This document shows positions 13,956 through 61,792 of a stretch of 64,000 bases of DNA, piece by piece. The notes beneath the pieces were generated by a model, which searched no databases, was not told the DNA's origin, and saw only the letters and a program-made list of their open reading frames with translations. Within the stretch, counting starts at the first letter, position 1, and each line of letters starts with the position of its first letter. Both the position numbers and the translations under genes were made by a program. The stretch spans positions 24,242,001 to 24,306,000 of the forward strand of contig NC_083279.1 in assembly GCF_963506605.1 (NCBI RefSeq). The letters run 5' to 3'. This stretch comes from Zootoca vivipara (Eukaryota).

Positions 13956-15229
13956 AGCTAAAGGGCTTTTTTTCAGTCCTGCATTGGTAACTGCTGCCTC
14001 CAGGCATTGTTTTTGCTGTGTTTGCAGCACCAAAGTGACTTATCTGAGGCACAAGCCTGGGCAGTGTGTATGGAGGTCCCCAACTGCCTAGACGACAAGA
14101 CCCACCTCTCGGCCTCACTGATGTGGTCCAAAGGAAAGGAAATCAATACATTTGGCACCAGCTGGGCTGCAGGATTGCTGGAAGGAGGTGTACAATATGC
14201 CATCCAACCACCATAGGGACGCCACTCTGGATTACCTATACCTATATCTACATGCCATGTTGCTACGGAGGGTTCAGATTGACACCTTGTGCATTAAAGC
14301 ATATGTGAAGGGGCTGCAAGCTATGCAAGCTACCTCTGCCCATGCAGACCATACACTGGTATGCCCCATTCCCATGTGTTTGGTAACTGTGAGAAGGGCC
14401 CCTTCACATTTGCTGATGTACATGTGCAGAGCTCTTCCGTGCAAGGAGGGAGGGAATGCTGACTGCCCTCTCTAATGTGCTTTTAATGTCTGGACCTCAT
14501 TCCCCCCACCCCCCACCCCCAGTGTCTAGCTCCTTCTTCTGCTCAGTTGAAGAGAGGAGTTTCCATTCTCAACAGAATTCCACCGTGGAGGGCACTGTCC
14601 CATTGCCTGTGCTGAGGAAAGATTGAGCAACCAGTCTGGTCAACTTCTGTATGTGTAATTGGGAAGAGCGTCTTGTTCATTGCCTGAGGCAGTGAAAGAT
14701 TTTGAGGTGGCCCAGCTGGTCTTGGTTGGTATGCACAGGAACATAGGAAGCTGTCCTGTGTCAGCTAGTGGTAGGGTTATTATTTTCGTTTTGATTTCTT
14801 ATTATGTTTTCTTATGATGATCTGGAACTTCTGCATACAAAGCAGATGCTCTACTACTGAGCTACAGCCCCTTCTTGTATAATGGCGGATCAGCACAGCT
14901 GCCTGTATTTCCAGACTCTCCTTGGTGGCACGACTATGGTTGCTCTCATTAGGAGCTCCGTCCTGCACTTCAAAACTGACCACCGTGCCATCACCTTCGC
15001 CAGTTACTACACAGCAGCAACCAGGCAGTGTATTCAGTTCACATGCCAGTGGTAGTTTAGAGACTATCCACCCCCATCCACCAACCCCAGAAGCTCTCAA
15101 GGCAGGAAAAGAGCCCATCTGGTGGCCAAGCACCAAATTATAAATACATATGAGGATTAGGGCATAACAATGAGCACATGCACCAGGGAGGCAGTTTTCA
15201 GCCACGCACTTGTGACAACCATAATGTAT

Positions 15230-15692
15230 ACAGTGGTACCTTGGATTACAAACACAATTGGTTCAGGAAGTCTGTACTTAACCTGAAGCCAACTTTCCCA
15301 TTGAAAGTAATGGAAAGTGGATTAATCCGTTCCAGACGGTCCATGGAGTACTTAAACTGAAGTGAACTTAACCTGAAGCGAACTTTCCCATTGAAAGTAA
15401 TGGAAAGTGGATTAATCCGTTCCAGACGGTCCGTGGAGTACTTAAACTGAAGTGAACTTAACCTGAAGCGAACTTTCCCATTGAAAGTAATGGAAAGTGG
15501 ATTAATCTGTTCCAGACGAGTCCGCGGAGTACTCAACCTGAAGCGTACTTAACCCGATGTATGAGTGTAATTGGTTCTGGAAGTCCGTACTTAACCTGAA
15601 GCATACTTAACCTGAAGCGAACTTTCCCATTGAAAGTAATGGAAAGTGAAAATACTCAAACAGAGGTGTATTTAAACCGAGGTATGACTGTA
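15230..15692. mobile_element. Tc1/mariner (Tigger/pogo-like) MITE with 90-bp internal tandem repeats
   Basis: TA-flanked termini CAGTGGTACCT / AGGTATGACTG; AACTTTCCCA recurs at 15291, 15381, 15471 (period 90). Confidence 0.8.
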
Positions 15693-35815: not shown

Positions 35816-36268
35816 TAGCTATGTGTAAATTATTTACTATAGGGTTCCTCCCCAAGGAAAGTGCTTTGTTAAGCTCATGTGATGCCTTTTAATACATTGC
35901 CAGCTTTCTGAAGCCTCATAGTGTTGTTGCTAGCTGTGTTTCTCATTTATTAGCCATTACAGCAGAGATAGTCCAGAATTGCAACTTTGCCTTGGAAACT
36001 TTCCGGATATTCACTTCTCTCCCAAAACGAAAGGTTCACTCCCCGTGTACTCTTGCTTGCATATTCAATGGGCCATATCCTTCATTTCAACTATCTCTCA
36101 GCATTATTGATCTCATTCATCTAGATTTAGCTTCACTCATGAACTAACACCAAACCAAACAAAAAGAAGAGGAAAGGATAAGGAGGGGAAGTGTTTGTCA
36201 GAGATCACGGAAGAGCTTTCTGTTGGTGGTGGTGGTGATGGTGAGCTACAGGACACAGGGATCTGAAT

Positions 36269-36609
36269 ACAGTGGTACCTCGGTTTATGAACACAATTGG
36301 TTCCGGAGGTCTGTTCATAAACTGAAGCGTTCATAAACTGAAGCGAACTTTCCCATTGAAAGTAATGGAAAGTGGATTAATCCATTCCAGACGGGTCCGC
36401 GGAGTACTCAACCTGAAGCGTACTTAACCTGAAGCATGGGTGTAATTTGTTCCAGAAGTCTGTTCATAAACTGAAGCATTCATAAACTGAAGCGAACTTT
36501 CCCATTGAAAGTAATGAAAAGTGAATTAATCTGTTCCAGATGGGTCCGCGGCGTTCGTAAACCGAAAATTCGTAAACCGAGGTGTTCATAAACCGAGGTT
36601 CCACTGTAT
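36269..36609. mobile_element. Tc1/mariner MITE, same family as 15230-15692
   Basis: TA-flanked TIRs CAGTGGTACCTCGGTTTATGAAC / GTTCATAAACCGAGGTTCCACTG; shared AACTTTCCCATTGAAAGTAATG unit. Confidence 0.85.
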
Positions 36610-39511: not shown

Positions 39512-40357
39512 AAGCGGTTGGAGGATGGATGGCGGCTAACAGATTGAGGTTGAATCCTGACAAGACAGAAGTACTATTTTGGGGGGACAGGAGGCGGGCA
39601 GGTGTGGAGGACTCCCTGGTCCTGAATGGGGTAACTGTGCCCCTGAAGGACCAGGTGCGCAGCCTGGGAGTCATTCTGGACTCACAGCTGTCCATGGAGG
39701 CGCAGGTCAATTCTGTGTCAATTCTATCAGCTCCATCTGCTACGCAGGCTGAGACCCTACCTGCCTGCAGACTGTCTCGCCAGAGTGGTGCATGCTCTGA
39801 TTATCTCCCGCTTGGACTACTGCAATGCGCTCTATGTGGGGCTACCTTTGAAGGTGACCCGGAAACTACAATTAATCCAGAATGCGGCAGCTAGAGTGGT
39901 GACTGGGAGCGGCCACCGAGACCACATAACACCGGTCTTGAAAGATCTACATTGGCTCCCAGTATGTTTCCGACCACAGTTCAAAGTGTTGGTGCTGACC
40001 TTTAAAGCCCTAAATGGCCTCGGTCCAGTATACCTGAAGGAGCGTCTCCACCCCCATCGTTTTGCCCGGACACTGAGGTCCAGCACCGAGGGCCTTCTGG
40101 TGGTTCCCTCATTGCGAGAAGCCAAGTTGCAGGGAACTAGGCAGAGGGCCTTCTCGGTAGTGGCGCCCGCCCCGTGGAACGCCCTCCCATCAAATGTCAA
40201 AGAGAAAAACAACTACCAGACTTTTAGAAGACATCTGAAGGCAGCCCTGTTTATGAAGGCTTTTAATGTTTAATCCATTATTGTATTGTATTTTTCTGTT
40301 GGAAGCTGCCCAGAGTGGCTGGGGAAACCCAGCCAGATGGGCGTGGTATAAATAATA

Positions 40358-40403
<46 letters not shown>
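39512..40403 (+). mobile_element. L2 LINE 3' ~0.9 kb (frameshifted ORF2 C-terminus)
   Basis: WMAANRLRLNPDKTEVL and HALIISRLDYCNALYVGLP..LQLIQNAAAR..LHWLPV are hallmark L2 motifs; (TAT)n tail. Confidence 0.95.
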
Positions 40404-43400
40404 GGCATTGCTAGCTACCAATGCCACGTGCATTCCCATATATAACACTGAGTCCAGAAGAACCTCAAAACTGCAAGCTTGTTTCTTTATGCAATCCCAT
40501 TTAAAACTGATCACACACCTCCTTCCAGTGCAGAACCCATTGTCTTCTCAGGACATCCTGTGAACTAGAAGCATGTGAGGAAGGGAACCAACCTATAATT
40601 AAGTTTTCATAGATTAATTATAGCTTAGACTGGGCAGTGGAATTCAGCCATCTCTGCAAACATGAGTACTTTAACTGAGCCAGTATAATCTATGAGGCAC
40701 CTTATCAAAACAATGGTTTGGAATTGTTTCAGGATATAATATTAATGAGGCTAAAACTAAATTATATGATTTAACTGTAATGACATTTTCCTAACACACA
40801 TGCAATTAAATTCATGGGTTCCTGATTCATAGAGCACGTGAAAAGGCCTCTTGTATGACTATCATCCATTTCAGAGCTTTAAGGGGGGGAAATGTTTTTA
40901 ATACAGTATGTCCATATTCATTATCCTTGGTTATTTAAAATGAGAAAGTCAGACCATCACAGAACAGTCAGTAAGAAGCACAGCCCTGATCCTAAATACT
41001 TGCTCAGGTAGCTGTTTCAATGCTAGTTTAATGTCATGGTTTGCAAAATTGCACAAGTGCAGGGAATTGTTACATCTAAATATATATTTCTTGGCACAGA
41101 AAGAGTTGGTTCACACATGAATGTATATCACTTGATCTCTCAGCACCTGCTGATTCGCAGCTCTGTGTATGAAATGCCTGCAGTGTTGAATTATTTGTAC
41201 TATGTATTCATTTCCCCCCGCTTTGGCACATATCATTTCTCTTGCTTTTCAACACCATAAAGTACCATTTGGCTCACTTAAGGGAGTTTTTACAAAACTC
41301 TTTGGTAAATACATATTTGAATTGATTGCCCCATTAACAAAAAGAATTGTTAGATAGAATTATATTTGAAGACACTGTCCATCAGCCGCCACAAAGCATG
41401 CTTAATTATTTCTTAGAAAATATTCGGTATTTTTCAAGCAGACAATAAAATACAATAAAATAAAATAAATGTAATCGGGAGGGTTTTTTTAAAAAAAAAA
41501 GAATAATTGGTATAAAAGTGTGTTTATTGCCCTGCTTTTATTCATGTAGATTTAATTAGCCAACACTTGACATGAGTATTTTAAAGTTATTAGCTAACAT
41601 TAATCCCGTCTCCCAATGGTGATCTGGCTCGGAATTGCAAAACCTCCAATGACACAATGATGAGCAATTTAAAACTCCCCCACCCTCTCTCTCTCTCTCT
41701 CTATCTATATATTTCTGATACTGAAACCATATGCTCTTCTACACACACACACAATTTCCTTTTATTCTTTTAACAATATGCTTTATCCAAATACCTACTA
41801 GATTTTGAATTAGTAGAATTTAGCTGCCGTCTCCTAAATTGCATAGACAATTGGTTAAGGAATAAAAGCAAAAGAAGAAGAAGGTGGTGGGGGGGGGGAA
41901 GGAGTTTATTTTTAGCAGGTGGTTGCAATTATACACACTTTGAGAGTTTCTATCCTCCACCCCCACCCCCCTTTTTTTGGACCCTGGCCTGTGCTCCCTT
42001 CAATCTTGTCAGCTGTAAAATGGGTCTCTTTTTAACCCATAATGGATCTGCGAGATTAAAGGTGAAGTCATGAATTAGTCAAAGTGACAGCCCAGCACGA
42101 TGGTCTGGGAGCAGGGGGTCTCCTTTTGTATTCGTCCACTCTGACCTCCAGTGCCACTCCACGTCTGTGGGAACCGGACAAGAAGAATGTTGGGGAGGAG
42201 TTAAAAAGCACGTAAGTGGCAGTTCCTGGTCCTGGCCAGAGAGGAGTTGACATTCTTTTGCTGGAAATATTCTGACATCATCCCAGTCATACCTCCTCAA
42301 CAGTCCCTTCGTTAGTTCTTTTGTGCTTAGCAGAGGAAAAAACAATAGGTCTTGTTGCAGGCATATAAAAGGGCGGACGGCAAATCTTTTACCCAGCTAG
42401 CTATTTTAGATGATGTTGCTTAAAATTTGCTGCAACGCCGTTTTTAATAGCAGAAAACTTTAGAGCTAGGGCTTTAATGGCTACTTGTTGTTGTTGTTGT
42501 TTTTAAACATCTAAAGAGTATAGAAATGCGACCCACATCTCCATATACCAAAGTCCAGAGGAGGGTCCTCTTCCATTGTGCGCCTACTACGGAGGAATGC
42601 TCTTCCTACTGAAATTAGATAGGCACCTACTTCAGGGTGATTTCACTGACCATTAAAGACCATCTGCTTTTCCATCCCTGACTTCTTGGTATGGTACCTT
42701 TTTTTTACTGACGATTTTTATTTCAGCGAGCTTTGTGATGTGCTTTATTATTGTCGCCAATAAAAAGCAGTATAGAATTTTAATTTTAAAAAAATAAAGT
42801 ATAAAGAAATACCATGGCTCACCAAGAGCATGTAACAACCCAAGGTCTCTGCTTGCTGCTGTGACCTTCCAAGCACAATTCAGAGTGTTTGTTTTTATAT
42901 ATAATAAACTTCTGCATAGGTGGGAACCCTTTATACCTCAGTAACCAGCAATGGGGGCATAGTTCAGCAGCACAGCACATGCACTGATGGTCCAAGCATC
43001 AATCTCTGGCAAGAGAATCAAGATTCCTACATGAAACCCTGCTCAAACCACCAACCTTCTGGTCAACAGCCACACACAATGACCCATTGCTCTTCAAGTT
43101 AGACGAGCCAATAACTTCTCATATGTCAAATCATGATCTCTGTGGTGGTTCAGTACATCCTGGCCACTTGCCTAATCCTGATTATAGGGATCTTCAATGG
43201 ACCTGGAGCTATTGAGCTATTCATTACTTATTTACTGATTACATTTATATACCTCATTTCCTCCAAGGCGGCATGTATGCCACTCTCAACGTTTTATTCT
43301 CATAACAACCCTGTGAGGAAGATCAAGCTGACAGATAGTGCCTAGTCTAAGGTCACCCGGTGTGCTTCATGGCTTAGCTGGAATTTGAACCTGGGTTCTC

Positions 43401-45834: not shown

Positions 45835-45845
45835 TGTGGAATTCT

Positions 45846-45899
<54 letters not shown>

Positions 45900-46258
45900 A
45901 AGGAAGAAAAGTGCATACCTACATTTTGATTGCTTTACTTACGTTAGATTAACCTGGAGAGTGAAGAAGATACTGAGACAGGAGGAGGGAGACACCTTCC
46001 CATTTCCAAAGAACAGGCTTGATTTCACAGCTTGCATCTGATTCCCTGCCCAGGTCTGCTTACCAATGTAAAACTTGTTCTAAATAGGCTCTCTAGCATC
46101 TACCTCCCTTGCTAAGTAAGGCTGCTGAGAATCCTGAAAGGCACAAATCCTGAATGAAAGGCACAAATACAGGATGGGAGACACCTGGCTTGAGAGCAGT
46201 ACATGTGAAAAGGATCTAGGAGTCTTGGTAGACCACAAACTTGACATGAGTCAACAGT
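45835..46258 (+). repeat. Left arm of inverted duplication (unique DNA plus CR1 piece); partner at 55397-55832
   Basis: Reverse-complement match read base by base; two substitutions outside the (GT)n tract; identical ORF-track peptides at both sites. Confidence 0.95.
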
Positions 46259-46769
46259 CACAAAATATATTTAGCTTTTTTAGCTGCTGCATCACACTGT
46301 TGACTCATGTCAAGTTTGTGGTCTACCACAAAATATATTTTGGGAGTAAAGTGAGAGAGAAGAGTAGGCTACTTTAATAATAAAAGGTAACAATATGTAA
46401 ATAAAGTGATGTAATATTTAAGCTTTCTTACAGGCCAAACCTGGATTCCATTGGTGGAAAATAACCACCACCACCCCAAAAAAGCAGGTTTTTTTCTACC
46501 ATGTCTTTCCCCCCTTAGTCCTGGGAATGGTAACTTTGTGAAGATATTGGTTGGTTATTCTGGACTTGAACTCTGTCACATTAAACTATAATGCACATAG
46601 TTTAATGTGGTAAACAGAATTCATGTTGAAAATAACCACTCGATATCCTCCCAGGGTAAGTTGTGGTGAGATGTTAGAGAATACACGAATGTATGTACCA
46701 TCATACAGATGGTTTCTGTCCGTAGCACACACATGGTTAGGATTTACCCCAGATATTTTAAAAGTGCAT

Positions 46770-47322
46770 CTTCTTCTTCTTTGGCGATCACTTGTATCCG
46801 AGTAAGATTGTCTTCTATGAACATTGTCTTAACAGTGAGTCTGTAGGTGACTGTGGAGGCCAATTCTGAATCCACACGTCCTTCCACAGTGGGGACATTG
46901 GTTTCCAAGTGGGAGTTGATCACGGTGTGAATTTGCCAAGCGTGCCTTCCTCTTAGCACGTTTCTCCCTTACATCCTGTGTTTGAGCGTCTTCAAAGCCC
47001 ATGACACCTTCGGTAAAGGCTGTTCTCCAACTGGAGCACTCGCAGGCCAGTGTTTCCCAGTTGTCAGTATTTATACTACATCTTTTAAGATTTGCCTTGA
47101 GACAGTCTTTAAACCACCAGCATTGTTGACCACCAGCATTACGCTCTCTATTTTTAAGTTCGGAATAGAGTAGTTGCTTTGGAAGACCATCATCAGGCAT
47201 CCGCACAACATGACCAGTCCAACGAAGTTGATGTTGAAGAATCATTGCTTCAACACTGGTGATCTTTGCTTCTTCCAGTACACTGATATTAGTTCGCCTG
47301 TCCTCCCAAGTGATGTGTAAAA
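46770..47322 (-). mobile_element. RTE-clade LINE 3' end
   Basis: ITWEDRRTNISVL..QLRWTGHVVRMPD..LPKQLLYSEL..CPHCGRTC..GLHSH; (GAA)n tail; TSD AAAAGTGCAT (46760-46769, 47323-47332). Confidence 0.93.
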
Positions 47323-47639
47323 AAAAGTGCATACACCTACTAGGTACCATACAAAAAACTTAAAGAAGGCAGCCCCTGTCCTCAGCTTTACAAAGATAAA
47401 GACCACTAAAGGGGGGGGGGGGAGTTGAAAGGAAAGGAAGGTCAACTGGCAAAATTCAAGGTGAGAAAAATAAGTTGAGGCACAAAATGGGACAGGAGTC
47501 AGGTGTCAGCTGGAAATGCTTTTCGGTTATATGAAGCTGCAAGGGAGGAGGAATGCAGCAGAAACTATAGTAATCCATTACTCAAATAATAAGGGGGCAG
47601 AGGGGCCTCATCTCCCTACCATTTTTAATGGCTACCCGG

Positions 47640-48400
47640 GCTTCTGTTTCTAGAAGGCTCCAGGGGAAGACATGTTTTGGATGAAATTGGTGTCAAGGTA
47701 TGGAGCCCATAGATCTCATTGGCACTTGCAAAGCTTTGCACATGGGGCTTCGGAAGACCCCAATATCAGATGATCACTGGTCCTGACAGGACACTATGCA
47801 AGGGGCTTTGCAAGACCATCATCTGTTGATCAGCTTATTGTTAGACATTACAGAATGCCACAAACATGGCTTTGCAAGACCTTATGATCAACTCATTCTC
47901 ACACCCCAGGAAATGGCTGTGACTGGTTGGCTAAATCAGGTGAGAGTAGCTGATGGGTCTCAAAACCTCAGTGAATTAGGGACTTCCCCTGTATGTGAAG
48001 ACAGACTCTGGTGGATTCAGCAGACGAGTCCAATACTGGGTCCAATAGTCAAGAATGTGGTTTCTGCACATGCCCTAGAGGGAAATGAGGGGCAGCTGGG
48101 GCTCATCAACCTGGGAAGGCAGCTCATTTAGGAGAAGGAAAACTCTGGTCCTAACCCTCCACTGCCTTGCGGGAAATCCTTGGGAGAAGAAAAGGCTGAG
48201 GAGTAAACCCTACCAGATCCACCCAGAACCACCCTCAGGTGGTTGGATAGCGTCTTGTATGCCTCCTTCTGACAACTCCTGCAGCCAAGCTGGTGCCACA
48301 TGTATTGCTCTGCTTTCCTTTGGACTACATCAGTGAGGCTGAGAGGGGGATCCTATCATCTGGGCAGCCCAGGATCTCCATACACACTGCCCAGGCTTGG
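47640..48400 (+). mobile_element. Probable RTE-type LINE 5' region remnant; related antisense fragment at ~14045-14220
   Basis: 48290-48400 is similar to the reverse complement of 14045-14165 (CTCCATACACACTGCCCAGGCTTG shared); family assignment from memory only. Confidence 0.45.
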
Positions 48401-48693
48401 GAACTATATGACAAAGAAAATCATAAAAGTACCAGATAGGAATTTTCCTGCCATCAGGCTATTATTAACCTGGTTCGTAGGTCTTCATACATGCACTCCT
48501 ATGAACTTTTTACATTTTCACTTAGGGAAAAAATCATTTCAAGAAGGTATCTTATTCAGATTATTACATTTTTTTAAAAAAATCAAGTCTGTATGAACTT
48601 CTAAAGTCTGTTTGTTGCCCCCCAAAAAAATGTTTTCTTAAAAGAGGTTGGTATGTAAGAGTCAGAAATGTATACTTGAGCATACATAATCAC

Positions 48694-48783
48694 CATAGCT
48701 GCCAAGTTATCCCTTTTTTACAGGGATTTTCCCTTATGCTGAATAGGCTTCCTCGCGAGAAAAGGGAAAACTTGGCAGCTATG
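48694..48783. mobile_element. ~90-bp hAT MITE copy 2 (opposite orientation)
   Basis: TIR CATAGCTGCCAAGTT; perfect TSD ATAATCAC. Confidence 0.92.
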
Positions 48784-49482
48784 ATAATCACTGAAGACAT
48801 GGGAGCCAAAGGAGTATTCAACTAAACATCCTTCCATTGTGCTTTGGAAAATTGTCATCTGACCCAACTAGGAACTGCCATGGCTATTCTTCCAATCGTT
48901 AAGGAGAAGAAGCAAACAAAAATTGCCCAGATCACTATAACTTCCACATTTCTGGTTATGAATACGTATAATTGTATGTTAATTTGTCAGTTAATTTGCA
49001 GCTTGTGCTGCAAAGCTTCCGAAATTCTGGCTGTGCTCATCTCAGGTTTGAATGTTCGAAATAATCAACTGTTTAGGGGGTGGTTGCAGTTTATTATTTA
49101 TTTATACAACACCATCAGTGCTAGCAAAGTTTTATAAGCAAAAAATGAAAATTAGCTTACAACATAATATTCTTTCCACCCAATCGTGGCGTGCTGGAAA
49201 GCAAGTGCTTAGAACAAAAAGTTCTGGACTGATATTGCCGATGGATCCCCAATGGATCCCTGATATAGCACTGCATGTTCACTGCTTAAAACTGGTACGA
49301 ATGCAATCAATCAATCAATCAATCCAATGCACTAGCAACCCCAACCATATGCCAAGCTGTGTTGTGCTGGAAACAACTCCTGTGACAACACAGTTGGCTC
49401 AGAGCACGGTGAAAAACTGAAACAAGGGAACACAGCATAGCAGAGACCTTCCATTTAAGCAGAAAATGACACTAGTGGCATT

Positions 49483-49573
49483 CATAGCTGCCAAGTTTTC
49501 CCTTTTCTCACGAGGAAGCCTATTCAGCATAAGGGAATTTCCCTTAAAAAAAAGGGATAACTTGGCAGCTATG
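49483..49573. mobile_element. ~90-bp hAT MITE copy 3
   Basis: TIR CATAGCTGCCAAGTT; perfect TSD GTGGCATT. Confidence 0.92.
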
Positions 49574-50546
49574 GTGGCATTGCCACTAGTATAGAACATG
49601 CTAAACCACACCTGTCCAATTTAGGCCTCACGCAAAATGCTGAGCAAACCCATTCCGTGCAATATCTCAACATTGCATATCTGTTAAGGGTTAAGTGCAG
49701 TTAAGATATGAAGCTTCCTTATTATACTGAGTCAGACCAGGGGGTCCCTCTAACTCAGCATTGTCTACAGTTACTGGAAGGGGCTCTCCAGGGTTTCAGG
49801 CAGGGGGACTGAGCCTGCAGCCTGGGCTGCACCTGCCCAATGCACGGGCAGCACAGTTAAGCCAACCTACATTGTTGTATTTTAGTGGTGAAATTGGTTT
49901 GGAATCCTAGTAGTTCACTCGATTAGGTTGTGAGTTGGGCTGTTAGTGCAGGCTATTGTTAAGATATTTTCCAAACAATTAACATTTCTGGTGGTGGGAA
50001 GAGGAAATGGAAATACTCATTTAACTAGATTCAGCGGTGCTCATTTAACAAGGCTGTCCATGCATAAACATCGAGCCAAAGAGAAACAGAAATACTCAAA
50101 GCATGTATATTCAATGCAGGCAATTTTTGATGACAGACAAGGTCCCCCCCCCCCCCAGCTGAAGTCGAAATCTTAAATGATCTTCTTCTTCTTCTCCTCT
50201 TCCCAAAGATTTTTTTTTTAAGACCAAACTTTCAGTGTCATCCATAATAGCAGTTCATGCCAAGGACTACTTTCTTAAAGCTGCTTCTCAAGTCTTGTGA
50301 TTTGCAGCAGCAGCAGCAGCACACACTTCTTATTACAGGATACATTATGCAGAAACCCTCTGCTCTGTGATGGGACATGGCAACCCCGCTGTGAGAATGC
50401 CGATCAGCACTTCTTTTAAGGCCTTTTCTCAATTGTCAGCAAAGTATTTTTTAAGGTTAAAAGGTGTAAAATTATTCTGAAATGCTTTTCTGACCTGTCG
50501 CCTATCACGCTACAAAAAGCTATAGTTCATTTTCTTCCCACCTAAA

Positions 50547-50583
<37 letters not shown>

Positions 50584-51918
50584 TGGAAATATAAGAAGAA
50601 ATCCAGTTAGCAGAAACAAATCAAATGGGGGACGGGGGGGGGCGACAAAAATCTAACTTTAGTTTCCCTCCCCTCCATATATCTATAGACAAATATATCT
50701 GTGGATAGATCTTAATAATTTTATTAAAGTGCAATCGCATTGCGATGCTTTTGGCCTTCTTATTCATGATATTGATTTTCCAGAACATTTGTTTCAAAGC
50801 TCAACTAATAGCAAAAATGTCGTTTTCTTTTCTGTAGCTTGTTATGATAGGATTCTGTGACACACTGCACAATGTAGTAGTCAAAAGGATCAACCTTATG
50901 AAAAAATATTCCCATAACATGAAGGCACAATATTCACATGATCCATCACTCTGCAAACACTACCTGTACTTTGATTAAAACAATGCCGGATGTCAGCAGG
51001 GGGGGGGGGGGGAGAAGAAGCCTTCTGTTCCCCAGAATTGTGGCTTGTCTTCAGTTCTCCAAGCTGCTTAACTCTAGATTTCCCAGGCTACATCAATCAT
51101 TTAAGGTCAATGATCCTATAATTTTTAATCCTAAACCCAAAAGGTTACCACATCCTATTGTCTGTAGCTTAGGATTTTCAGTTGTGGCTAACTTTTTATA
51201 CTTCAGTGTAATAGTGAAAGATTTTGAAAATCTCTTTAAGTTTCATGGAGTGTTTTATATAGTTGCATAATCAGCCCTATATGAGGCAACTCAACCTTGT
51301 AGTAAAGATAGCTACCAGTTTAGAACAAAAGTATCTGTCAGGCACCAAAAGCCTGATTGGCCTATTAAATGTATGGTGTGTGCGCACAAAGAAGCAAGTA
51401 AAGCTGGGGGGGGCGGGGGAAAGCACTAAGAAGAAAAGCTGGTTGGAGGGATGAATTCAGAAGAGATGACGAAAGCAGCACTGTGAAATGCCTTCCCCTT
51501 CTGCGCTGAGAAATGTTGCTGAGCTGCACAACTGATATATATATACACACATGCAGAATATATAGCATGGGAAGGGCATACGAAAGTAAAAGAAAGAGAG
51601 AGGCTGCAACACACATAACAGTGTCCCTGTATATTTACTATGCAGTATGAAAAGGAAGAGGTCTGCAATATTAACTGAAGCCAATAGTCCAGTTATTGAA
51701 ACTCCACAAGGATCTGATGCACGGGTGTAGTGTCTATGAAAGTGGGCACTGACTCCATAACATCAGCATTAGCAAGAGTTTTAACTGAACCCAACCCTCT
51801 CCTTTGCCCAAGTGCTGTGTTCTTGGGATTGTTTTTTAAAAAGATACAGGCTTCCCCAAATCTTAACTTTTCAGGCTTTAGGGCAGGAATCTTCCTCTTC
51901 CTCTCTCTCTCTTTAAAG

Positions 51919-52040
51919 TGTTGTTGTTGTTGTTCAGTCGTCGCGACTCTTCGTGACCCCATGGACCAGAGCACGCCAGGCACTCCTGTCTTCCACTGCC
52001 TCCCACAGTTTGGTCAGACTCATGTTGGTGGCTTTGAGAA
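51919..52040 (-). mobile_element. BovB LINE extreme 3' fragment
   Basis: Near-identical to 13388-13515; (CAA)n tail. Confidence 0.88.
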
Positions 52041-53356
52041 AAACTGTGTTACTTTTAGGGAAATCAGAACTGTGCTTTGCGAATGAATTTTCGGCATGTT
52101 TTTGGCTTCTCTTCGGAAGTATCTTGTACTGACTTCACCAAGCGTTGGAGGGCTCTGTAGCGGTCAAACCTCTTTTCTTCCTGGATATATTGAGCAGGAC
52201 ACTGATTTCCTGCAACACCCTCTTCCCTACTCCCATTGTGATGGGAGGGAATCATGTATTTAATTTATTTATTTTAAAGCCTTAGCAAGAGTTTCAAACA
52301 CACTTTGTAAACTGGGTATCTGAACTGAACTGCCTGCTGGTGATGAGGGTTTTACCGTTCTCCTGCCACCCCTGATTTCTGACTAGGTCTGAAAGCCAGG
52401 TTAGCTATGGAAGTCTGCTGACATTCTCACAGGTAGCATTTTCATGCAAGATACTGTTAACGCAGGCCATATTACGCTACCATATGTGATGAGCACACAT
52501 CCTCTCTTTTTTGCTACTTGTACGTGTCATGGTAATCCACCAGCAGCCTGGACTTCCCAAGGCATGTCTGTACAACAAAACAGAGGGGCATGTACTCAAC
52601 AGCACACAAATGGAATTCATGAAATTTCACGCAATGGAAAGGACAATATCCATGTAGAAAACCAAGCCCTGTCTTTAGTGGTTTTTTACTCTTAGATTAC
52701 ACAAGAGCTTGAGTTCTCACTTTCAGGATTTATACCGGTGCAGGATCCTTCGGTGCAGGTGTATGTTTAGCAATTGCATTAAAAAAAAACCGGAACATTT
52801 TCTGCTCAGCAAGCGGAGGTTGCAACCTAAGGTTCCCTAAATTAAAGTCCTGCAACAATCCTTTTTTGAAAGGTGAGCAAATAAAAGTTTCACAACATTC
52901 AAGCCCTTTTGTTCAAACAAGATGTTCTATTTCAGAGATAGCCTGAGGGGTTTAGAAATGTTCGTGGTGGTAGCTGCAACTGAAGATTCTGTTTTTAAGG
53001 CACCTTTAGCTGAGAAGGAAAGAGAGGCCATTCCAGTAATCCGAACAGCCACACCTTCATGGCATTCCCATAGTAGCCTATACCTCATATCCTCAAAGGC
53101 AGATATGGGAAACCATATGATTACAATGAGCTCCAGTAAAAACTCTGCACATGTGATGCCCAAGATATGCTGTTTATAATGCAGAGACCCCAGGTAATCT
53201 GCAAGAGGTACCTGGTAGGTCAGGGTCCATATCTTTTCTGCCCCTCTACACGTCGCCTGTTATTTATTCTCCATCACTGTTCTAAAAAAAATTTTTTGCA
53301 CCACCTTCTATTCAAATAGAATGCTATAGACATTTTTGAAAAGCATACTTATTTGC

Positions 53357-53405
<49 letters not shown>

Positions 53406-53745
53406 TTGATTGATACCCCGCCCATCTGCCTGGGTTTCCCCAGCCACTCTGGGCGGCTCCCAACAGAACATTAAAAACACAACACAGCATCAAACATTGA
53501 AAACTTCCCTAACAGGGCTGCCTTCAGATGTCTTCTAAAAGTCAGAGAGTTGTTTCTTTCCTTGACATCTGATGGGAGGGCATTCCACAGGGCGGGTGCC
53601 ACTACTGAGAAGGCCCTCTGCCTGGTTCCCTGTAACTTCACTTCTCGCAATGAGGGAACCGCCAGAAGGCCCTCGGCGCTGGACCACAGTGTCCGGGCTG
53701 AACGATGGGGGTGGAGACGCTCCTTCAGGTATACAGGACTGAGGC
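53357..53745 (-). mobile_element. L2 LINE 3' end
   Basis: Reverse complement of ~40015-40400; (AAT)n tail. Confidence 0.93.
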
Positions 53746-54611
53746 CTGAGGGTGCAATCCTGCACAGACTTACTCGGGGGAGGGAGAAAGCTTCTCCTTT
53801 TAACTTGGGGTGTGTTCACACCACAGCTTTAGAGAGCAGTGACCAGCTGTTCACAGCAACATGGCTTGAATAGTGTCACATTCATTTCTGTTTGTGTGCA
53901 CACCCAGGGAGAGTCAACAGGTGGGGATGCCTTTACCCCACGCAAAGGTGTTCATACCTTGGCTGGAAAGGAGTTAAGGAACGGCTTAAGGACTCCAAAT
54001 CAGTGTGAAGATGGTTTGAGAAGCAGCACATCAATCAGTAGTATTTCACAAAATAATACAGGATATGTATGCATTTTAGATGGCATCCTATGGAACATGG
54101 GTTACCATTAAATACTCAGCACTGGATACTCAGTGAGAGCACAGCAAATGGAAATGTCAACACAGCATCAGTGGGACTTATTTCTGGCTAGCTCTGTACA
54201 GAAAGCACCGCCAGTCATATAATTGATTCCTACAGCTGAATTTGAGTATGCTACTATGGATCGATGAAGGGAGGGATAATGAGTTTGTATCACTAGAAGA
54301 GTAAGTTTAGGTAGATGCTCGCACTAGCTTTCCAATATGTATGCTTATTATTATTTCCTGAATGCAGCCCTGTATAGGGGAGTTTTAAATGTTTGATGCT
54401 TTACTGTGTTTGACGTTTTAATTGGTTGGAAGCCACCCAGCATGGCTGGGGCAACAACAGGTAGTTGGTGGTGGTTGCAAAATAAATACTCTTGCTACAT
54501 TTGACACACAAAAAAACAACAGTTATATATTCATCACCCAGACTGCCAACATATTCAACCATTTTAAAAATCTAAATCTTTCACTGCTACAGTGAAGTTG
54601 GTAAAGTCCAG

Positions 54612-54772
54612 TGGACTGTAGCTCAGTGCTTTGGATGCAAAAGGTTCCAGGTTCAATCCCTGGTAAGGATGGCATCTCCTGGTAAGGCTGGGAGAAACCA
54701 TCTCAGAGGACTGAGGGAGAAGGGGTGATTCTAGGTTCAATCTCTGGCATCACCAGGTAGGGCTGGGAATGT
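54612..54772 (+). mobile_element. tRNA-Ala-like SINE fragments; related pieces near 14820, 21895, 37800
   Basis: TGTAGCTCAGTG..GCTTTG..CAGGTTCAATCCCTGG..CATC..CAGGTAGGGCTGGGA. Confidence 0.6.
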
Positions 54773-55778
54773 CATAGAATCGTAGAATCGTAGAGTTGGA
54801 AGAGACCACAAGGGCCATCCAGTCCAACCCCCTGCCGAGCAGGAAACACCATCAAAGCATTCTTGACATATGCCTGTCAAGCCTCTGCTTAAAGACCTCC
54901 AAAGAAGGAGACTCCACCACACTCCTTGGTAGCAAATTCCCCGGCCGAACAGCTCTTACTGTCAGGAAGTTCTTCCTAATGTTTAGGTGGAATCTTCTTT
55001 CTTGTAGTTTGAATCCATTGCTCCGTGTCCGCTTCTCTGGAGCAGCAGAAAACAACCTTTCTCCCTCCTCTATATGACATCCTTTTATATATTTGAACAT
55101 GGCTATCATATCATCCCTCAACCTTCTCTTCTCCAGGCTAAACATACCCAGCTCCCTAAGCCGTTCCTCATAAGGCATCATTTCCAGGCCTTTGACCATT
55201 TTGGTTGCCCTCTTCTGGAGACGTTCCAGCTTGTCAGTATCCTTCTTGAACTGTGGTGCCCAGAACTGGACACAGTACTCCAGGTGAGGTCTGACCAGAG
55301 CAGAATACAGTGGTACTATTACTTCCCTTGATCTAGATGCTATACTCCTATTGATGCAGCCCAGAATTGCATTGGCTTTTGTAGCTGCTGCATCACACTG
55401 TTGACTCATGTCAAGTTTGTGGTCTACCAAGACTCCTAGATCCTTTTCACATGTACTGCTCTCAAGCCAGGTGTCTCCCATCCTGTATTTGTGCCTTTCA
55501 TTCAGGATTTGTGCCTTTCAGGATTCTCAGCAGCCTTACTTAGCAAGGGAGGTAGATGCTAGAGAGCCTATTTAGAACAAGTTTTACATTGGTAAGCAGA
55601 CCTGGGCCGGGAATCAGATGCAAGCTGTGAAATCAAGCCTGTTCTTTGGAAATGGGAAGGTGTCTCCCTCCTCCTGTCTCAGTATCTTCTTCACTCTCCA
55701 GGTTAATCTAACGTAAGTAAAGCAATCAAAATGTAGGTATGCACTTTTCTTTCTTAAAACACACGCACACGCACACGC

Positions 55779-55821
<43 letters not shown>

Positions 55822-55993
55822 AGAATTCCACAGTACTTTACATTTCTCCTTGTTGAAATTCATCTTATTTGCTTTGGCCCAGTTGTCTAATCTGTTAAGG
55901 TCATTTTGAAGTGTGATCCTGTCCTCTGGGGTATTGGCCACCCCTCCCAATTTGGTGTCATCTGCAAACTTGCTCAGGATGCCCTCAAGCCCA
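54773..55993 (-). mobile_element. Young CR1 LINE (5'-truncated), interrupted by an inverted copy of DNA from 45.8-46.15 kb
   Basis: Open ORF2 C-terminus [31 protein letters not shown]; (ATTCTACG)n tail; 5' half KFADDTKLGG..NKMNFNKEKCKVL resumes at 55833. Confidence 0.96.
55397..55832 (-). repeat. Right arm of inverted duplication (partner 45835-46258)
   Basis: Reverse complement of the left arm; the microsatellite here carries (ACACGC) interruptions. Confidence 0.95.
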
Positions 55994-57974
55994 TGTCCAC
56001 TGCCCAAAGCCCTGGAGAGCCACTGCCCAATAATGTGGAACATACTGAACAAAATAGACCAATGATCTAACTGCAAAAGGCAGAAGCATATCATTTAAGT
56101 GCATTTAAGTTTGATTGTGCTTGTAAACTACAATGATTTAATAATCAAGTTAGTATAACTGCAAGCTCTTTAATATATCTGTACTTGTGGGACATCTTTT
56201 GTTTTATGGTTTTCCATGCAAAAGGTAAACAATCTGCTCTACTTCTCTTTTTCCTCTTTAGGCTGCCCCACATGCATTGATTTTCGAGTTCTTCAGCATA
56301 ATAATGGAACTGTGGAATGAAAACCCAAATGCACACCTTATGTCAAAAGAAAAGAAAGCTGGAGGATTCAATTGTAGATGAACTTTCTTAATTACTTAGG
56401 GACTTGTCCCTGTGAATTCAGTGGGACTTATTTCTGAGTGAGCTTGCCCTGGTTTGGGCTGCAACTGGTTAAAATAAAACACCGGAGAAGGGGGGAAATG
56501 CTAATAAATGTAAGGAAATTTGGTGGTGGTGAGCTTGGCAAGGCTGAATTTCCAAATCTTGATGAGTATTCCAGCATACAATGCACTGAAAATTAAATGA
56601 GGTAACAGCACCCCCTTCTGAGAACCAATCCTGAATTTCTGTATTACCCTCACTTTAGAGTACAACTAGGACTCATTTCATGATGGTCACAGATTTCTAA
56701 ATTCAGCTCCTCACCCCTGTCTTTCTCCTGTATACTATTTTGCTTAAAAATGTAGAACATATCCACAATCTTTGTTTGTTTACAGAGACACACATACATT
56801 GCAGTCAATATTTATATAATATTTTATGTATGTTTGTTAATTATGAATATAATATACAGGATGCAATCCTAAGCATACTTACTAGAAAGCTCTATTGAAC
56901 ACAGTGGGGTTTATTTCTGAGCAAATATGTTTAAGGTCAGGATGTCAGAGGAAAGACAGTCGTTCTTCCACTTTGCATGATTAATTGCTTTCTTCCTGTC
57001 AGCATGCCTTGAGATAATAGTTCCAAGTAGCACACCTATTATTTTTTTAATCTTCTGTGCCTTTTTCCATAAAAATGCTCAAGGCAGTTCACAGTAATTT
57101 CTAATACTGAGCAATATCATTATTAAAATATCACAAAAATATATTGCTTTAGTTAGGTTTAGTTTTCTCTGAGTGATGTGTAGTTCAAAGGCACCAGATG
57201 TGAGTGAGTGATGTAACCGTAGGCTTAATTGTTGGGTTTTTGTGATTTGTTTTTCTTACACATATGTACAGGTTGAGCACATTTGGAGATACAGCTTAAC
57301 TCCAACAGATGTCCCATCTCCAAAGCAGATTTCTAGGGGAACCACCAGCACCATCAGATCCTCACAGGAAATCCAGATTCTTACTTGGGCTCTTTCTCCT
57401 TCTGCCAACCTCAATTCCAAAAAACCTGAAGCTAAGTCTCTCCTCCCTTTGGCCAGGCAGAGGACAAAGGATGAGTCATTTCCACCTCTCCACTTTCTGG
57501 CCCATTCACAGGGATAGCAGCTAAGCTGATAATCATCAGTTAAGACAGAGACATGTCTGGGCAAAGAACTTGCCAAGCTGCTTCCTATATTCTTGCCAGT
57601 TCTGGACCTTGATGGAAGCTGTGGGTTAGAAGAGATCCCTCATGGTTGCAGCAGCACTGGTGCTCACCAGGACTAAGATGGGGCGGGGCAGGATGGGGAG
57701 AACCATGTTAGCAGTGGCAGGCACAAGCATGCATGTGAACTTGCACCCACTGCCAACCCAGTACTTCCCATCTCTCATTGCCACCCTAGTCAGCCCTGAA
57801 CAGCAGCGCCACGGCCACAGTCAGGTCAGAACAGTGGGTGGCACACCTTTCCATGCACAGCCTACAAAGGTCCTATTGTGTCTTTTCTACGAGGTGCCCA
57901 GGAAGAATGGAGGCAGCAAAAGCCTCTCTCATGCTCTTCCCCACCGAGAAGGCAGGACTAAAGCTTTCGGCTGA

Positions 57975-58150: not shown

Positions 58151-60799
58151 ACATCTATAGGGCAAAGAATGACGTGAATGCTGGAGCAAAGTTTGGGGGG
58201 GAGTAGAAGAAGCAAGAGAGGCAAACACCTAGACTGGCCAATCCACCTGAAAAAAAAAACAGGCAGGTTTGTTATTGTGCCTCAACCCTCAGAAATCAGG
58301 TAGCAAAACTTCATGGCATAGGGATAAACATTATGACCAGCTGCAGAACAAGCTGTCCTCGAAGGAGGGAGCAAGGGCTGACTAAAAAGTTGGGATTCCC
58401 AATGCTCAAGAGTAAGGAAAGTGAAGGAGAGCCAGGTGAGTGATGGGCGGGGAGAGAGATAGGTCCATCAGATACCAGTACATCTGGAATGGTTCTGCCA
58501 ATATGAATGGCAATTATGGTCCTTGAACCATCACCAAACACTATCCAGACTCATGGGGACACTCTTGGGAGCTCTGGTAACTCTCCTTGGCACACCCACA
58601 TGGTGTCATGAGCTGCTTAAGCAGTTTAGCTGGGTTTGGCACCCCTCCCTAATCACAGCACAAGCAAGTGCAGTATCCCATTGAGGTGGATAAACTATCA
58701 GTTCAAGAAATGATGGGTAGTTTGACCATGCATTGCAGTGCAACATGTCAAACTGTACCAGGATTTAGTTCATTGTCATGTTATGTAATGTCATGCCTTT
58801 TGCATTGTTAGACATTCAAAATGCCTTCAGTAAAAATAAAAATACTAAAAAAGAAACATAGCTAAATCTTTGCACAAGTTAAAAATTCTATTAAAATTCT
58901 GCTTGTCATCCAGCTGCTAAAAAGCCATGCCATATAAACCAAGCAACCATACATAAGGATTCATATGTTGTTATCTCCAGATTGTTGTCACACTATCCAC
59001 TGACCCAATGCATTCAAAGTTGTTTCAGTTACACTCTGGGTCATCCAGAGGTCACTTGTTTCCTCTACGGAATTGGGAATTCCCTCCAGCCTATGAGGCC
59101 CCCCGCTTACTGTCCCCTTGATGGGAAAGGGGAGAGAAGTGACCAGAGGAGGTGACTACCTCTGCATTTCCCCCCCCCCCCAAAAAAAATAAGAATGTGG
59201 CCATAGACTTAGAAAGGCCGACTGACTGAGAACCATAATTTAAAATGCTTGGAAAGGACAGAAATGGACAAATTAATTGAAGTGATCTGAAGAAGAGAAA
59301 GTAGACGATCTTTATTGAGAGATGGGACTATTTTGTTTATTACTGAAATGTAAAATATAGAAATGTAATGCTTGAAATAAAGTGGATTTTTTGGAACGAA
59401 GTTAACAATAAACAAAAGATTAAAGGTTGACACCTTGTAGAGTGGAATTTCAACAGGCATTACTTTAACAACCCATTTTCTCATTGAGAGTGTAATAAAG
59501 ATTACTGGCTTCCCATCAGCACCCACTTTACAATGCCTTTTATTGGGGATTTGTGTCAACTCCCAGGTGACCCAGTGATAGTGTTAATAAACAAATTCCA
59601 AGTCTGACACTGGAAGAGAAAATGGATATGTCTTCACTATGTATACCTAAGTAATCTTTCTTGATCTAGAAAAATAAAGCCCAGAGTCCCAAATACTGAA
59701 TTTTTTAACGCTTAAGACAGCAATACTCCTAAGGCAATTCACCTTAAACTTTGCTGTCATGAACAAGACAGGAGAGTATTCAGCCAACATCCCTTTTATT
59801 GATGAGTGAAGTCCGTTGGCACTGCCGTTGTGATAAGGATTTTATTTTATTTTTAAAACCCAAACATGCAAGCAATCAGTTAATCTAACAAATATGTTAA
59901 ATGTTATGGGACAAAAAGGCTGGCTACTCACTGCTTTCATGAGCAGGGGACATAAATCTCTGGGAAAATTGCGCAGATGAAATCTGTGCGGAACACGTGA
60001 AGGGTCTTGGCACGTTCAGGCTCTGGAACCCTGAAGATAAGAGTTTTTTTTAAAGGACATCCTGCCTATCAATACTTCCACAGAGCACACCCTTTTGAGC
60101 TTTAGAAATATATTACATTATCCCTACAGCACACACAACACTTTTTACAATCATCCCCTAAAGCCACATGTATCTTCTTCAGTCCTTACTTAAGCAACTT
60201 TATTTATTTTTTTCTTTTTCAAGGAAAATCCTTTCAGAAAAAGAATGATGGCAAATAACCCAGGCTGCTTTTGCTGAATTATTAGAGCAGGTTTGTTAAC
60301 TAAAGACACTATTTGCTAAAATATTGATTGACTGTCTCATGCTACATTTCCTGCTATAAATACAGGGCACAATTCATCACCCCGTGAACACAGCAATCAA
60401 AGGAACTTAGCATAGGAGGCATAAGAGTCCTGCCCTCCCCAGCTTGTTCTTCTCAAACGTACCACAGTATCCACAAGCTTCTGGCGTAGTACATGAATCC
60501 AGCCATCTCTCCCCTTCTCGGGGACCTGACCAGAAAGCTACCATACTCATCCCGGAGCATGAATAACTTATGTGCAAGGACCAGGAAAGGATACTTTTAC
60601 TGCATATGGGCCTCACTTTGAAAGTAATCATCAGCACAATGGGTTGTGTATCACCTTAAGGGCCATTGGGGGGGGAGGGAGAACAGAGGACTCCGTGGAA
60701 CACTATGGGGCTTCCCTAACATGTATGTAGCAGTGCCCATGGGTGACGGATTGCACCCAGTGTTTTAAACGTTTCAAGAGTTATCACTTGTCTTGTGTT

Positions 60800-61650
60800 T
60801 ACACGGAGCCGTCTTTCCTACTGGAGCTACTGGTGCATTGCGCCAGGGCGCCGGCCTCTCAGAGGCGCCCCAGGGGTGCCCCAGTGAGTGGGGGAGCTGC
60901 GCGGCTTTGCCGGCGGCCTCCCCTTTCCCTGCACGCCGGCTCAAGTCGCAGCGCCCCTGCACCTGCTGCTGCCCTAGCCATGGATGTGCCCCTTTCCGCT
61001 CGCGAAGAGCCGGGAGAGTTCTGGAGGGTGCCACAGAAGAGGTGGAGGCTGGACGCAGCGCCTCCTGTATCAGCTTGCCACCCTCGCCTGCCTCCGCCAT
61101 GCTGCGCTGCGCCCGGAGCCTCCGCCCCTCTGGAGGAGCCGCCCTCCAGCTGCTACCCACCCAGAGGGCTGCCTCTCGCCTTTCCCGTCTTCTCCTCAGC
61201 GAAGGGGCCCTCAGGGCACGGTGGCAGGAGCTGCCAAAGTGCCAAGGCGCACCGTGATGCTTGCGCTTCGCCAGACCCTCACAGCACACGAGGGCTGCCA
61301 GGAGGCGGCCCCCCACTGAGGGCGAGCCCAGAGCTGCCGCCTCTTCCTTGCCACCAGGAGCCTGCGCCTGTCCTGAGCGCAGCAGCAGCAGCAGCTACGA
61401 ACTTACTAGCATGGAAGCACACCCACCACCTCCGTCTCCCAAATGCAATGGGGGAATTTGCGCCCTTGGCAACTCCAGACCCTCTTACTTGCGCTGCTGC
61501 TGCTGCTGCCGAACTTGCTAGTCTTACGAACCTGGAGGCCAGAGCCTCCGTTCTGCCAAGCAGCCGTCTGCTGCCCGCCCAGAGGGAAATGGGGGGGATG
61601 GGGGGTGAAGCAGGGGTCCTTGCCCTAAGGCACAAGATCAACTTAAGACG
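60800..61650. promoter_or_regulatory. CpG-island-like region (putative promoter or first exon)
   Basis: Sharp rise in GC and CpG content over ~850 bp, with no TIR/TSD or similarity to other repeats in the window. Confidence 0.65.
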
Positions 61651-61792
61651 GCCCTGTGTTTACATGACATCACAATGCTTCAGAGCTAGTTACATGCTGG
61701 TTTGCAAAGTTGGAGTGAAAAAAAGTAACAGGGCAGCAAGCCTGTGTTTGCCTTGGAGCGTATATTTCTATCTACATCCACAGCTAACCTGA
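60980..61792 (+). CDS. Hypothetical Pro/Ala-rich protein (270 aa, or first coding exon), unidentified
   Basis: Longest ORF in the window; ATG in strong Kozak context (GCCATGG); N-terminus MDVPLSAREEPGEFWRVPQKRWRLD; GC richness alone can give long ORFs. Confidence 0.4.
   Translation: MDVPLSAREEPGEFWRVPQKRWRLDAAPPVSACHPRLPPPCCAAPGASAPLEEPPSSCYPPRGLPLAFPVFSSAKGPSGHGGRSCQSAKAHRDACASPDPHSTRGLPGGGPPLRASPELPPLPCHQEPAPVLSAAAAAATNLLAWKHTHHLRLPNAMGEFAPLATPDPLTCAAAAAAELASLTNLEARASVLPSSRLLPAQREMGGMGGEAGVLALRHKINLRRPCVYMTSQCFRASYMLVCKVGVKKSNRAASLCLPWSVYFYLHPQLT

What the first reader, a model, noticed from the sequence alone, without database searches (positions are those of the whole stretch)
45835..55832. 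Two-way templated exchange between a CR1 and a unique site 9-10 kb away, leaving ~424-bp inverted repeats
Seen: the CR1 at 54773-55993 is split between KEKCKVL and [13 protein letters not shown] by ~310 bp that is the reverse complement of unique DNA at 45835-46134. Conversely, the unique locus continues into ~104 bp of that CR1 (46155-46258). Both sites share the same composite junction, GAATCCTGAAAGGCACAAATCCTGAATGAAAGGCACAAATAC, which alternates donor and CR1 words. The CR1 halves stay collinear, so there is no net inversion. Two substitutions and a differently evolved (GT)n tract argue against a simple assembly duplicate. Inference: a first templated insertion created homology; a later break was then repaired by one-ended ectopic strand invasion that copied the new junction back (SDSA/MMBIR plus microhomology joining). 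The near-identical inverted arms bracket 9.1 kb (46259-55396) and could drive an inversion polymorphism.
Basis: partly seen in the sequence, partly recalled or inferred. Interest (0 to 1): 0.7.

Follow-up and report, generated by a model that had tools for sequence, protein, structure and literature searches.

The report
CR1 junction copied into neighbouring copy
A real 424-base inverted repeat in a reptile genome most likely arose when one of two neighbouring copies of a common jumping gene was broken and repaired by copying the other's start and flank, an ordinary kind of repair scar rather than a two-way exchange.

Summary
The inverted arms (45835-46258 and 55397-55832), the shared junction and the split CR1 are real. 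The unique donor and the junction each occur exactly twice in the genome. The junction also stands in 4 of 4 public runs of the best-matching organism, so it is no assembly artefact. Those runs change the story. Each shows one unbroken flank-junction-CR1 contig. In two of them its depth fits one arm only. In one, the left flank of site B does not enter a CR1. An outgroup holds 222 other bases at site A. Copies of this family often begin at this very point. Best reading (0.6): the junction is the ordinary 5' end of a second, independent CR1 inserted at A. B later received that junction plus about 300 bp of flank by one-way ectopic repair. Rivals are an inversion later re-inverted (0.17), a short patch copied from B first (0.1) and mis-assembly of the second arm (0.08). 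It is a known kind of scar, and no gene was seen to be affected.

The parts
45835..46135 (+). Native unique DNA 'a' with a (GT)n tract; donor of the insert at B
   Evidence: Contiguous with the left flank, unique; lies on one outgroup contig with the right flank (X5 record 25)
46136..46154 (+). Composite junction J: a CR1 word, a re-copied flank word, then CR1 again; likely the 5' junction of a truncated CR1 inserted here
   Evidence: present in 4 of 4 runs; truncation at this point is common
46155..46258 (+). CR1 remnant b', sense strand; identical to 55397-55500
   Evidence: no private change at B over this stretch
46259..46330 (.). Templated patch: 14-base word, about 55 bp of antisense CR1 (c), start of the 14-base word again; forms a hairpin with b'; marks loss of about 220 bp of native DNA
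   Evidence: z -9.5; native sequence resumes at 46331 in 4 of 4 runs; c has the family allele where B has a private one
46331..46794 (+). Unique right flank Y, more diverged from run X1 than the neighbouring pieces
   Evidence: Unique; 12 other letters in 464 against 1 in 581
54769..54773 (+). Target-site duplication, left copy (5 bases)
54774..55502 (-). 3' part of the CR1 at B, with its tail
   Evidence: 14 of 729 sites differ from the column majority of 30 family loci; flank-tail junction present in X1, X16, X20
55503..55832 (-). Inserted inverted copy of J and 'a', replacing 16 nt of CR1; 1-base microhomology at the right join
55833..55992 (-). 5' part of the CR1 at B (5'-truncated, reverse-transcriptase region)
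55993..55997 (+). Target-site duplication, right copy

Best explanation
The inverted repeat is likely a one-way repair copy between two independently inserted, oppositely oriented CR1 copies 9 kb apart. Step 1 (inferred): a CR1 truncated just behind the A-run of its RT region inserted at site A; J is its 5' junction. Step 2 (shown by the target-site duplication): a longer copy of the same family inserted at B. Step 3 (inferred): B broke at its A-run; the end carrying the CR1 3' part invaded the copy at A, on the same or more likely the homologous chromosome, ran through J and about 300 bp of flank, and was joined back to the 5' part with one base of microhomology and a 16-nt loss. Step 4 (loss of native DNA shown, loss of CR1 inferred): site A lost the rest of its CR1 and about 220 bp of native DNA, and was sealed with repeated short templated syntheses from both CR1 strands. 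Steps 3 and 4 may be one event.
For:: X1, X16, X15 and X20 each have one unbroken contig over 55474-55758 (CR1, J, 'a'). Its depth is 46 against 57 for the flank in X1 and 36 against 37 in X20, which fits one arm, and X1, X16 and X20 read the site-A allele at 55608. In X15 the only contig on the left flank of B stops matching at 54769 and goes on for 275 unlike letters, while J is present; outgroup X5 has 222 other letters between 46135 and 46331; X1 has 249 unlike letters left of 46331, which fits 222 plus about 27 letters into a repeat; 7 of 14 hits of a pattern that asks for a non-A-run upstream have no upstream CR1 match, at least 4 starting exactly at this point; the pattern samples about one flank in eight, so some 30-50 copies begin here (rough). 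Four other hits have deletions or a patch at the same A-run; re-copied flank or element words stand at several other 5' ends; patch c has the family allele (26 of 26 copies) where B has a private one; 55-700 pairs of family copies within 10 kb are expected by chance.
Against: The full CR1 at A was never seen: the letters of the loose ends were not shown, and contigs break inside the repeat. b carries the same two subfamily alleles as fit the rest of B, a pair held by about a third of copies, which mildly favours one source; conversion would also give it. X15 has low depth (4-6), so an allele may have been dropped, and its match ends 4 bases short of where an empty site should. In X16 and X15 the J contig is about 1.5 times as deep as the flank. 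Contig depth is a weak guide to copy number. Two lesions on one haplotype are needed.
Confidence: 0.6

Rival explanations
1. Other individuals carry a simple 9-kb inversion that split the single CR1 at B, J being its left breakpoint. The window is a re-inversion with a staggered or template-switched break that duplicated the 424 bp and deleted about 220 bp.
For: Explains both lesions of the window in one event, one arm in X1 and X20, a repeat beside the 222-bp piece, concordant alleles of b with the rest of B and the diverged Y flank. Inverted duplications at inversion breakpoints are common in Drosophila (PMC1885836, passages).
Against: Needs two rare rearrangements reusing both breakpoints. 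X15 shows J without a CR1 tail at B and without a branch at the end of 'a'. Patch c lacks the private B allele.
Confidence: 0.17
2. One reading: a short patch was copied from the CR1 at B into a break at A, and B later copied the new junction back.
For: b' and b are identical over 104 bp; one arm with site-A alleles in X1, X16 and X20 fits the intermediate state.
Against: X15 has J with no visible CR1 at B. The junction lies at a common truncation point. The opposite order (B first, A still native) would give a branch at the end of 'a' and double depth, which none of 4 runs shows.
Confidence: 0.1
3. The second arm is a mis-assembly: a small mis-oriented contig overlapping its neighbour, the two arms being the two alleles of one junction.
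For: No run was seen to hold both arms or either window-specific join; both alleles at 55608 occur in other individuals; the geometry equals that of a flipped contig.
Against: No N at either join; the patch at A is a multi-step templated scar found in no parent form; the joins have 1-3 bases of microhomology, too short for a contig merge; differences in Y are mostly transitions. X16's Y contig starts exactly at 46331, a weak hint of a second allele branching there.
Confidence: 0.08
4. One event in which two DNA ends (or a CR1 cDNA and a break) templated each other, giving both arms at once.
For: Would explain an identical junction at both sites; L1 cDNA intermediates recombine with distant breaks (PMC13526784, abstract).
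Against: J exists in individuals that appear to have one arm and still have the native piece left of Y. The arms differ less than a copy made at insertion should (3 changes against about 11 expected).
Confidence: 0.05

Closest known systems
Non-allelic gene conversion / one-ended SDSA between retroelement copies (recalled; a related case listed as PMC4921805, search listing only)
   Same: A break in one copy is repaired from a nearby homologous copy; the recipient takes the donor's sequence without net inversion.
   Different: Here the tract runs past the end of homology into about 300 bp of unique flank and ends in a near-blunt join.
5' junctions of truncated L2/CR1-clade LINEs (PMC4245944, passages)
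   Same: 3-5 bp target-site duplications, microhomology and extra nucleotides at the 5' join; B has a 5-base duplication and J has extra templated words.
   Different: The duplication at A cannot be seen because its 3' end is gone.
Polymerase-theta templated insertions, TINS (PMC7165422, passages)
   Same: Several rounds of short direct and inverse templated synthesis from the flanks with short microhomologies, as in the patch at A.
   Different: Primary tracts there are rarely over 10 bp and distal templates are under 0.1% of repair; c is 55 bp and the insert at B 330 bp, so these need a more processive step.
FoSTeS/MMBIR complex insertions (PMC5120786, passages)
   Same: Templated insertions of hundreds of bases, 1-3 bp microhomology and small deletions at both donor and recipient sites.
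   Different: Those are large clinical copy-number events; this is a sub-kilobase natural variant.
Staggered-break inversions with inverted duplications (PMC1885836, passages)
   Same: An inverted duplicate of unique DNA at two distant breakpoints.
   Different: The interior here is collinear with the outgroup at A, so it would need a prior inversion.

Membership tests
5'-truncated CR1 insertion (site B) | 3' tail, short target-site duplication, RT-region homology to a multi-copy family | tested here: met
   Tail at 54774, 5-base duplication, 2,820 motif copies, weak RVT_1 match
5'-truncated CR1 insertion (site A) | 5' junction at a point where family copies truncate, precisely at the end of native flank | tested here: met
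   the outgroup match ends at 46135
5'-truncated CR1 insertion (site A) | Own 3' tail and target-site duplication | not testable with these tools
   Absent from the window; loose-end letters in other runs not shown
Ectopic conversion from A to B | Donor state exists without the recipient copy | tested here: inconclusive
   One-arm depth in X1 and X20, ratio about 1.5 in X16 and X15; contigs only
Ectopic conversion from A to B | Recipient halves collinear with a small loss and microhomology at the exit | tested here: met
   16 nt lost, 1 base shared
Templated-insertion (TMEJ-like) scar at A | Inserted words copied from flanks in direct and inverse orientation with short microhomology, at a deletion | tested here: met
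Templated-insertion (TMEJ-like) scar at A | Dependence on polymerase theta | not testable with these tools
   Needs genetics
CR1 subfamily carrying the junction | Junction and donor present at many loci | tested here: not met
   2 copies only
Staggered-break inversion | Interior inverted against the ancestral order | tested here: not met
   Outgroup contig holds 'a' and Y in the window's order and strand; a prior inversion in other individuals is not excluded

The most novel reading that the evidence does not exclude
A 9-kb segment inverted once by a non-homologous break inside a CR1 and was flipped back by a template switch between homologous chromosomes at both old breakpoints, so that the two arms are two alleles of one junction; all stages would still segregate in one species.
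Probability: 0.17. Interest if true: 0.55.

Novelty: new member of a known kind. Interest (0 to 1): 0.27.

Why it matters
It is a compact natural germline example of how two young, inverted LINE copies can move unique flanking DNA without reverse transcription and leave an inverted repeat. The stages appear to segregate among living animals, so the order can be read from long-read haplotypes. It also warns that a junction shared by two sites need not mean reciprocal exchange. No gene or function was found: 16 of 17 long frames tested had no Pfam match, and short exons were not searched, so the biological effect is probably small.

Tried and rejected
A CR1 subfamily with the junction: rejected. 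A closer source subfamily sharing B's private changes: two private words are unique in the genome and a third has 9 matches. Subfamily alleles did not separate b from the rest of B. The joint 46258-46309 in X1 and X16 as a site-A allele: six other loci have such a duplication. The 3-base insertion at 46148 in X1 and X16 stays unexplained. The lack of cover over 'a' for X1 and X16 was contradicted and is not used. Dating by arm divergence was dropped because both alleles occur in other individuals. My early one-event reading was lowered. The look-up of earlier findings returned nothing. Six paper searches (less the mechanism-only) listed no squamate case of this structure; only listings were seen, so this does not show that none is in print. 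The right join at B (55833) and both (GT)n tracts lay outside the stretches on which runs were laid, so they are unconfirmed. Only 6 of the 24 listed runs were laid.

Full report
Observation. The window holds an inverted repeat at 45835-46258 and 55397-55832, 96.3% identical over 436 columns. Outside the (GT)n tract the arms differ at two sites and share the composite junction letter for letter. The donor stretch has two matches in the 1.44-Gb genome and the junction words have two; the flanks of site A are unique. The CR1 at B has a tail at 54774, a 5-base target-site duplication (54769-54773 and 55993-55997) and an RT-region frame ending ...KEKCKVL. The family motif across the interruption is intact in 2,820 places; against its commonest listed form B lacks 16 nt, and the join to the insert shares one base.

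Right of the CR1 remnant at A lies a second patch: a 14-base word, about 55 bp of antisense CR1 matching 55375-55429, and the 14-base word again. It folds back on the remnant (z -9.5 against 200 shuffles). The word is itself a join of a CR1 word and the right flank, so both CR1 strands served as templates (read from the sequence). The patch reaches about 22 bp beyond the remnant and has the family allele (26 of 26 copies) at a site where B has a private change.

Age and family. B differs from the column majority of 30 family loci at 17 of 891 sites; 11 of 865 are private or nearly so, none of them in the 106 bp next to the junction. Two private words are unique in the genome. Had both arms been made when B inserted, about 11 differences would be expected over 430 bp; 3 are seen (P 0.005), though conversion could erase some.

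Other animals. One search listed 24 runs; 6 were laid. At site A, one contig of an outgroup run (X5) holds 'a' up to 46135 and the right flank from 46331 in the window's order, with 222 other letters between. So 'a' is native to A and the window has lost about 220 bp there. X3 has 175 and X1 249 unlike letters left of 46331; X16's contig begins exactly at 46331. At site B, 4 of 4 runs of the best-matching organism have one unbroken contig over 55474-55758, through CR1, junction and 'a'. The junction is therefore real and shared. Its depth is 46 against 57 for the flank in X1 and 36 against 37 in X20, but about 1.5 times the flank in X16 and X15. X1, X16 and X20 read the site-A allele at 55608; X15 reads the site-B allele, which the outgroups also have. 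In X1, X16 and X20 the left flank of B runs about 28 letters into the CR1 tail. In X15 it stops matching at 54769 and goes on for 275 unlike letters, at depth 4.

Reading. If 'a' led both to the junction and to the native 222 bp, the contig would break at the end of 'a'; it does not, in any of the four runs. So in these animals 'a' leads to the junction, and in X1 the 222-bp piece abuts a repeat (249 is 222 plus about 27, the same overlap seen at other repeat borders). Two arrangements fit: a second CR1 inserted between 'a' and the 222 bp, or an inversion that split the CR1 at B. X15, with the junction but no visible CR1 at B, favours the first. So does the base rate. Of 14 copies picked for a non-A-run upstream of this point, 7 have no upstream CR1 match and at least 4 start exactly here; the pattern samples about an eighth of flanks. 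Four others have a deletion or patch at the same A-run, which makes a break of B at this spot plausible. Re-copied flank or element words stand at several other 5' ends (2 of 39 by the strict word test, some of those loci chosen for a duplication, with flank duplications seen by eye). Extra nucleotides and 3-5 bp duplications are described for L2/CR1-clade insertions (PMC4245944, passages).

Mechanism. Shown: the arms, the junction in other animals, the loss of native DNA at A, the target-site duplication at B. Inferred: an independent truncated CR1 at A; a break of B at its A-run; invasion of the copy at A by the end with homology, synthesis through the junction and about 300 bp of flank, and a near-blunt join to the other end; deletion of the rest of the copy at A, sealed by repeated short templated syntheses like those described for polymerase theta (PMC7165422, passages), though longer. 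The B arm has the older allele at 55608, while the A arm shares a newer one with animals that seem to have one arm, so the donor was probably the homologous chromosome (inference). Unexplained: the right flank of A differs from X1 at 12 of 464 sites against 1 of 581 in the neighbouring pieces (P 0.0004), with changes on both lineages, as if it came from an old haplotype. This fits a switch between homologues and also the inversion rival.

Comparison and verdict. The parts resemble ectopic conversion between retroelements (recalled), complex insertions by iterative template switching (PMC5120786, passages) and, for the rival, staggered-break inversions (PMC1885836, passages). L1 intermediates can recombine with distant breaks (PMC13526784, abstract only), but a single event is unlikely here. 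No supplements were read. No gene was found among 17 long frames. The feature is real, of a known kind, probably one-way rather than two-way, and of modest interest.

Noticed in passing
L066 (G000:C12:55119917-55122942): Two copies of this CR1 family head to head about 900 bp apart, 93.5% identical, both beginning at the same A-run.
   Followed up: partly
L060, L065, L067, L070: Family copies with the upstream part intact but a deletion or a short templated patch at the same A-run; the site looks like a recurrent truncation and repair point.
   Followed up: partly
window 46331-46794: 12 differences from run X1 in 464 bp against 1 in 581 nearby; it contains an old imperfect palindrome at 46537-46653.
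   Followed up: partly
window 54769: Run X15 seems to lack the CR1 at B, so this insertion may be polymorphic.
   Followed up: partly
window 40016-40404 and 53356-53746: Another inverted pair of a dispersed repeat, 88% over 392 bp, about 13 kb apart; five copies of a 350-bp repeat lie at 4515, 22592, 27770, 38316 and 61984.
   Followed up: no
window 1431-1648 and 15225-15650: A 108-bp near-perfect tandem duplication and a 90-bp-period tandem array with a related array at 36264-36566.
   Followed up: no
window 60731-61792 (+): A 353-codon stop-free frame with no Pfam match.
   Followed up: no
L051, L053, L055: Family copies whose 5' end carries a restart duplication of the first element words.
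   Followed up: partly
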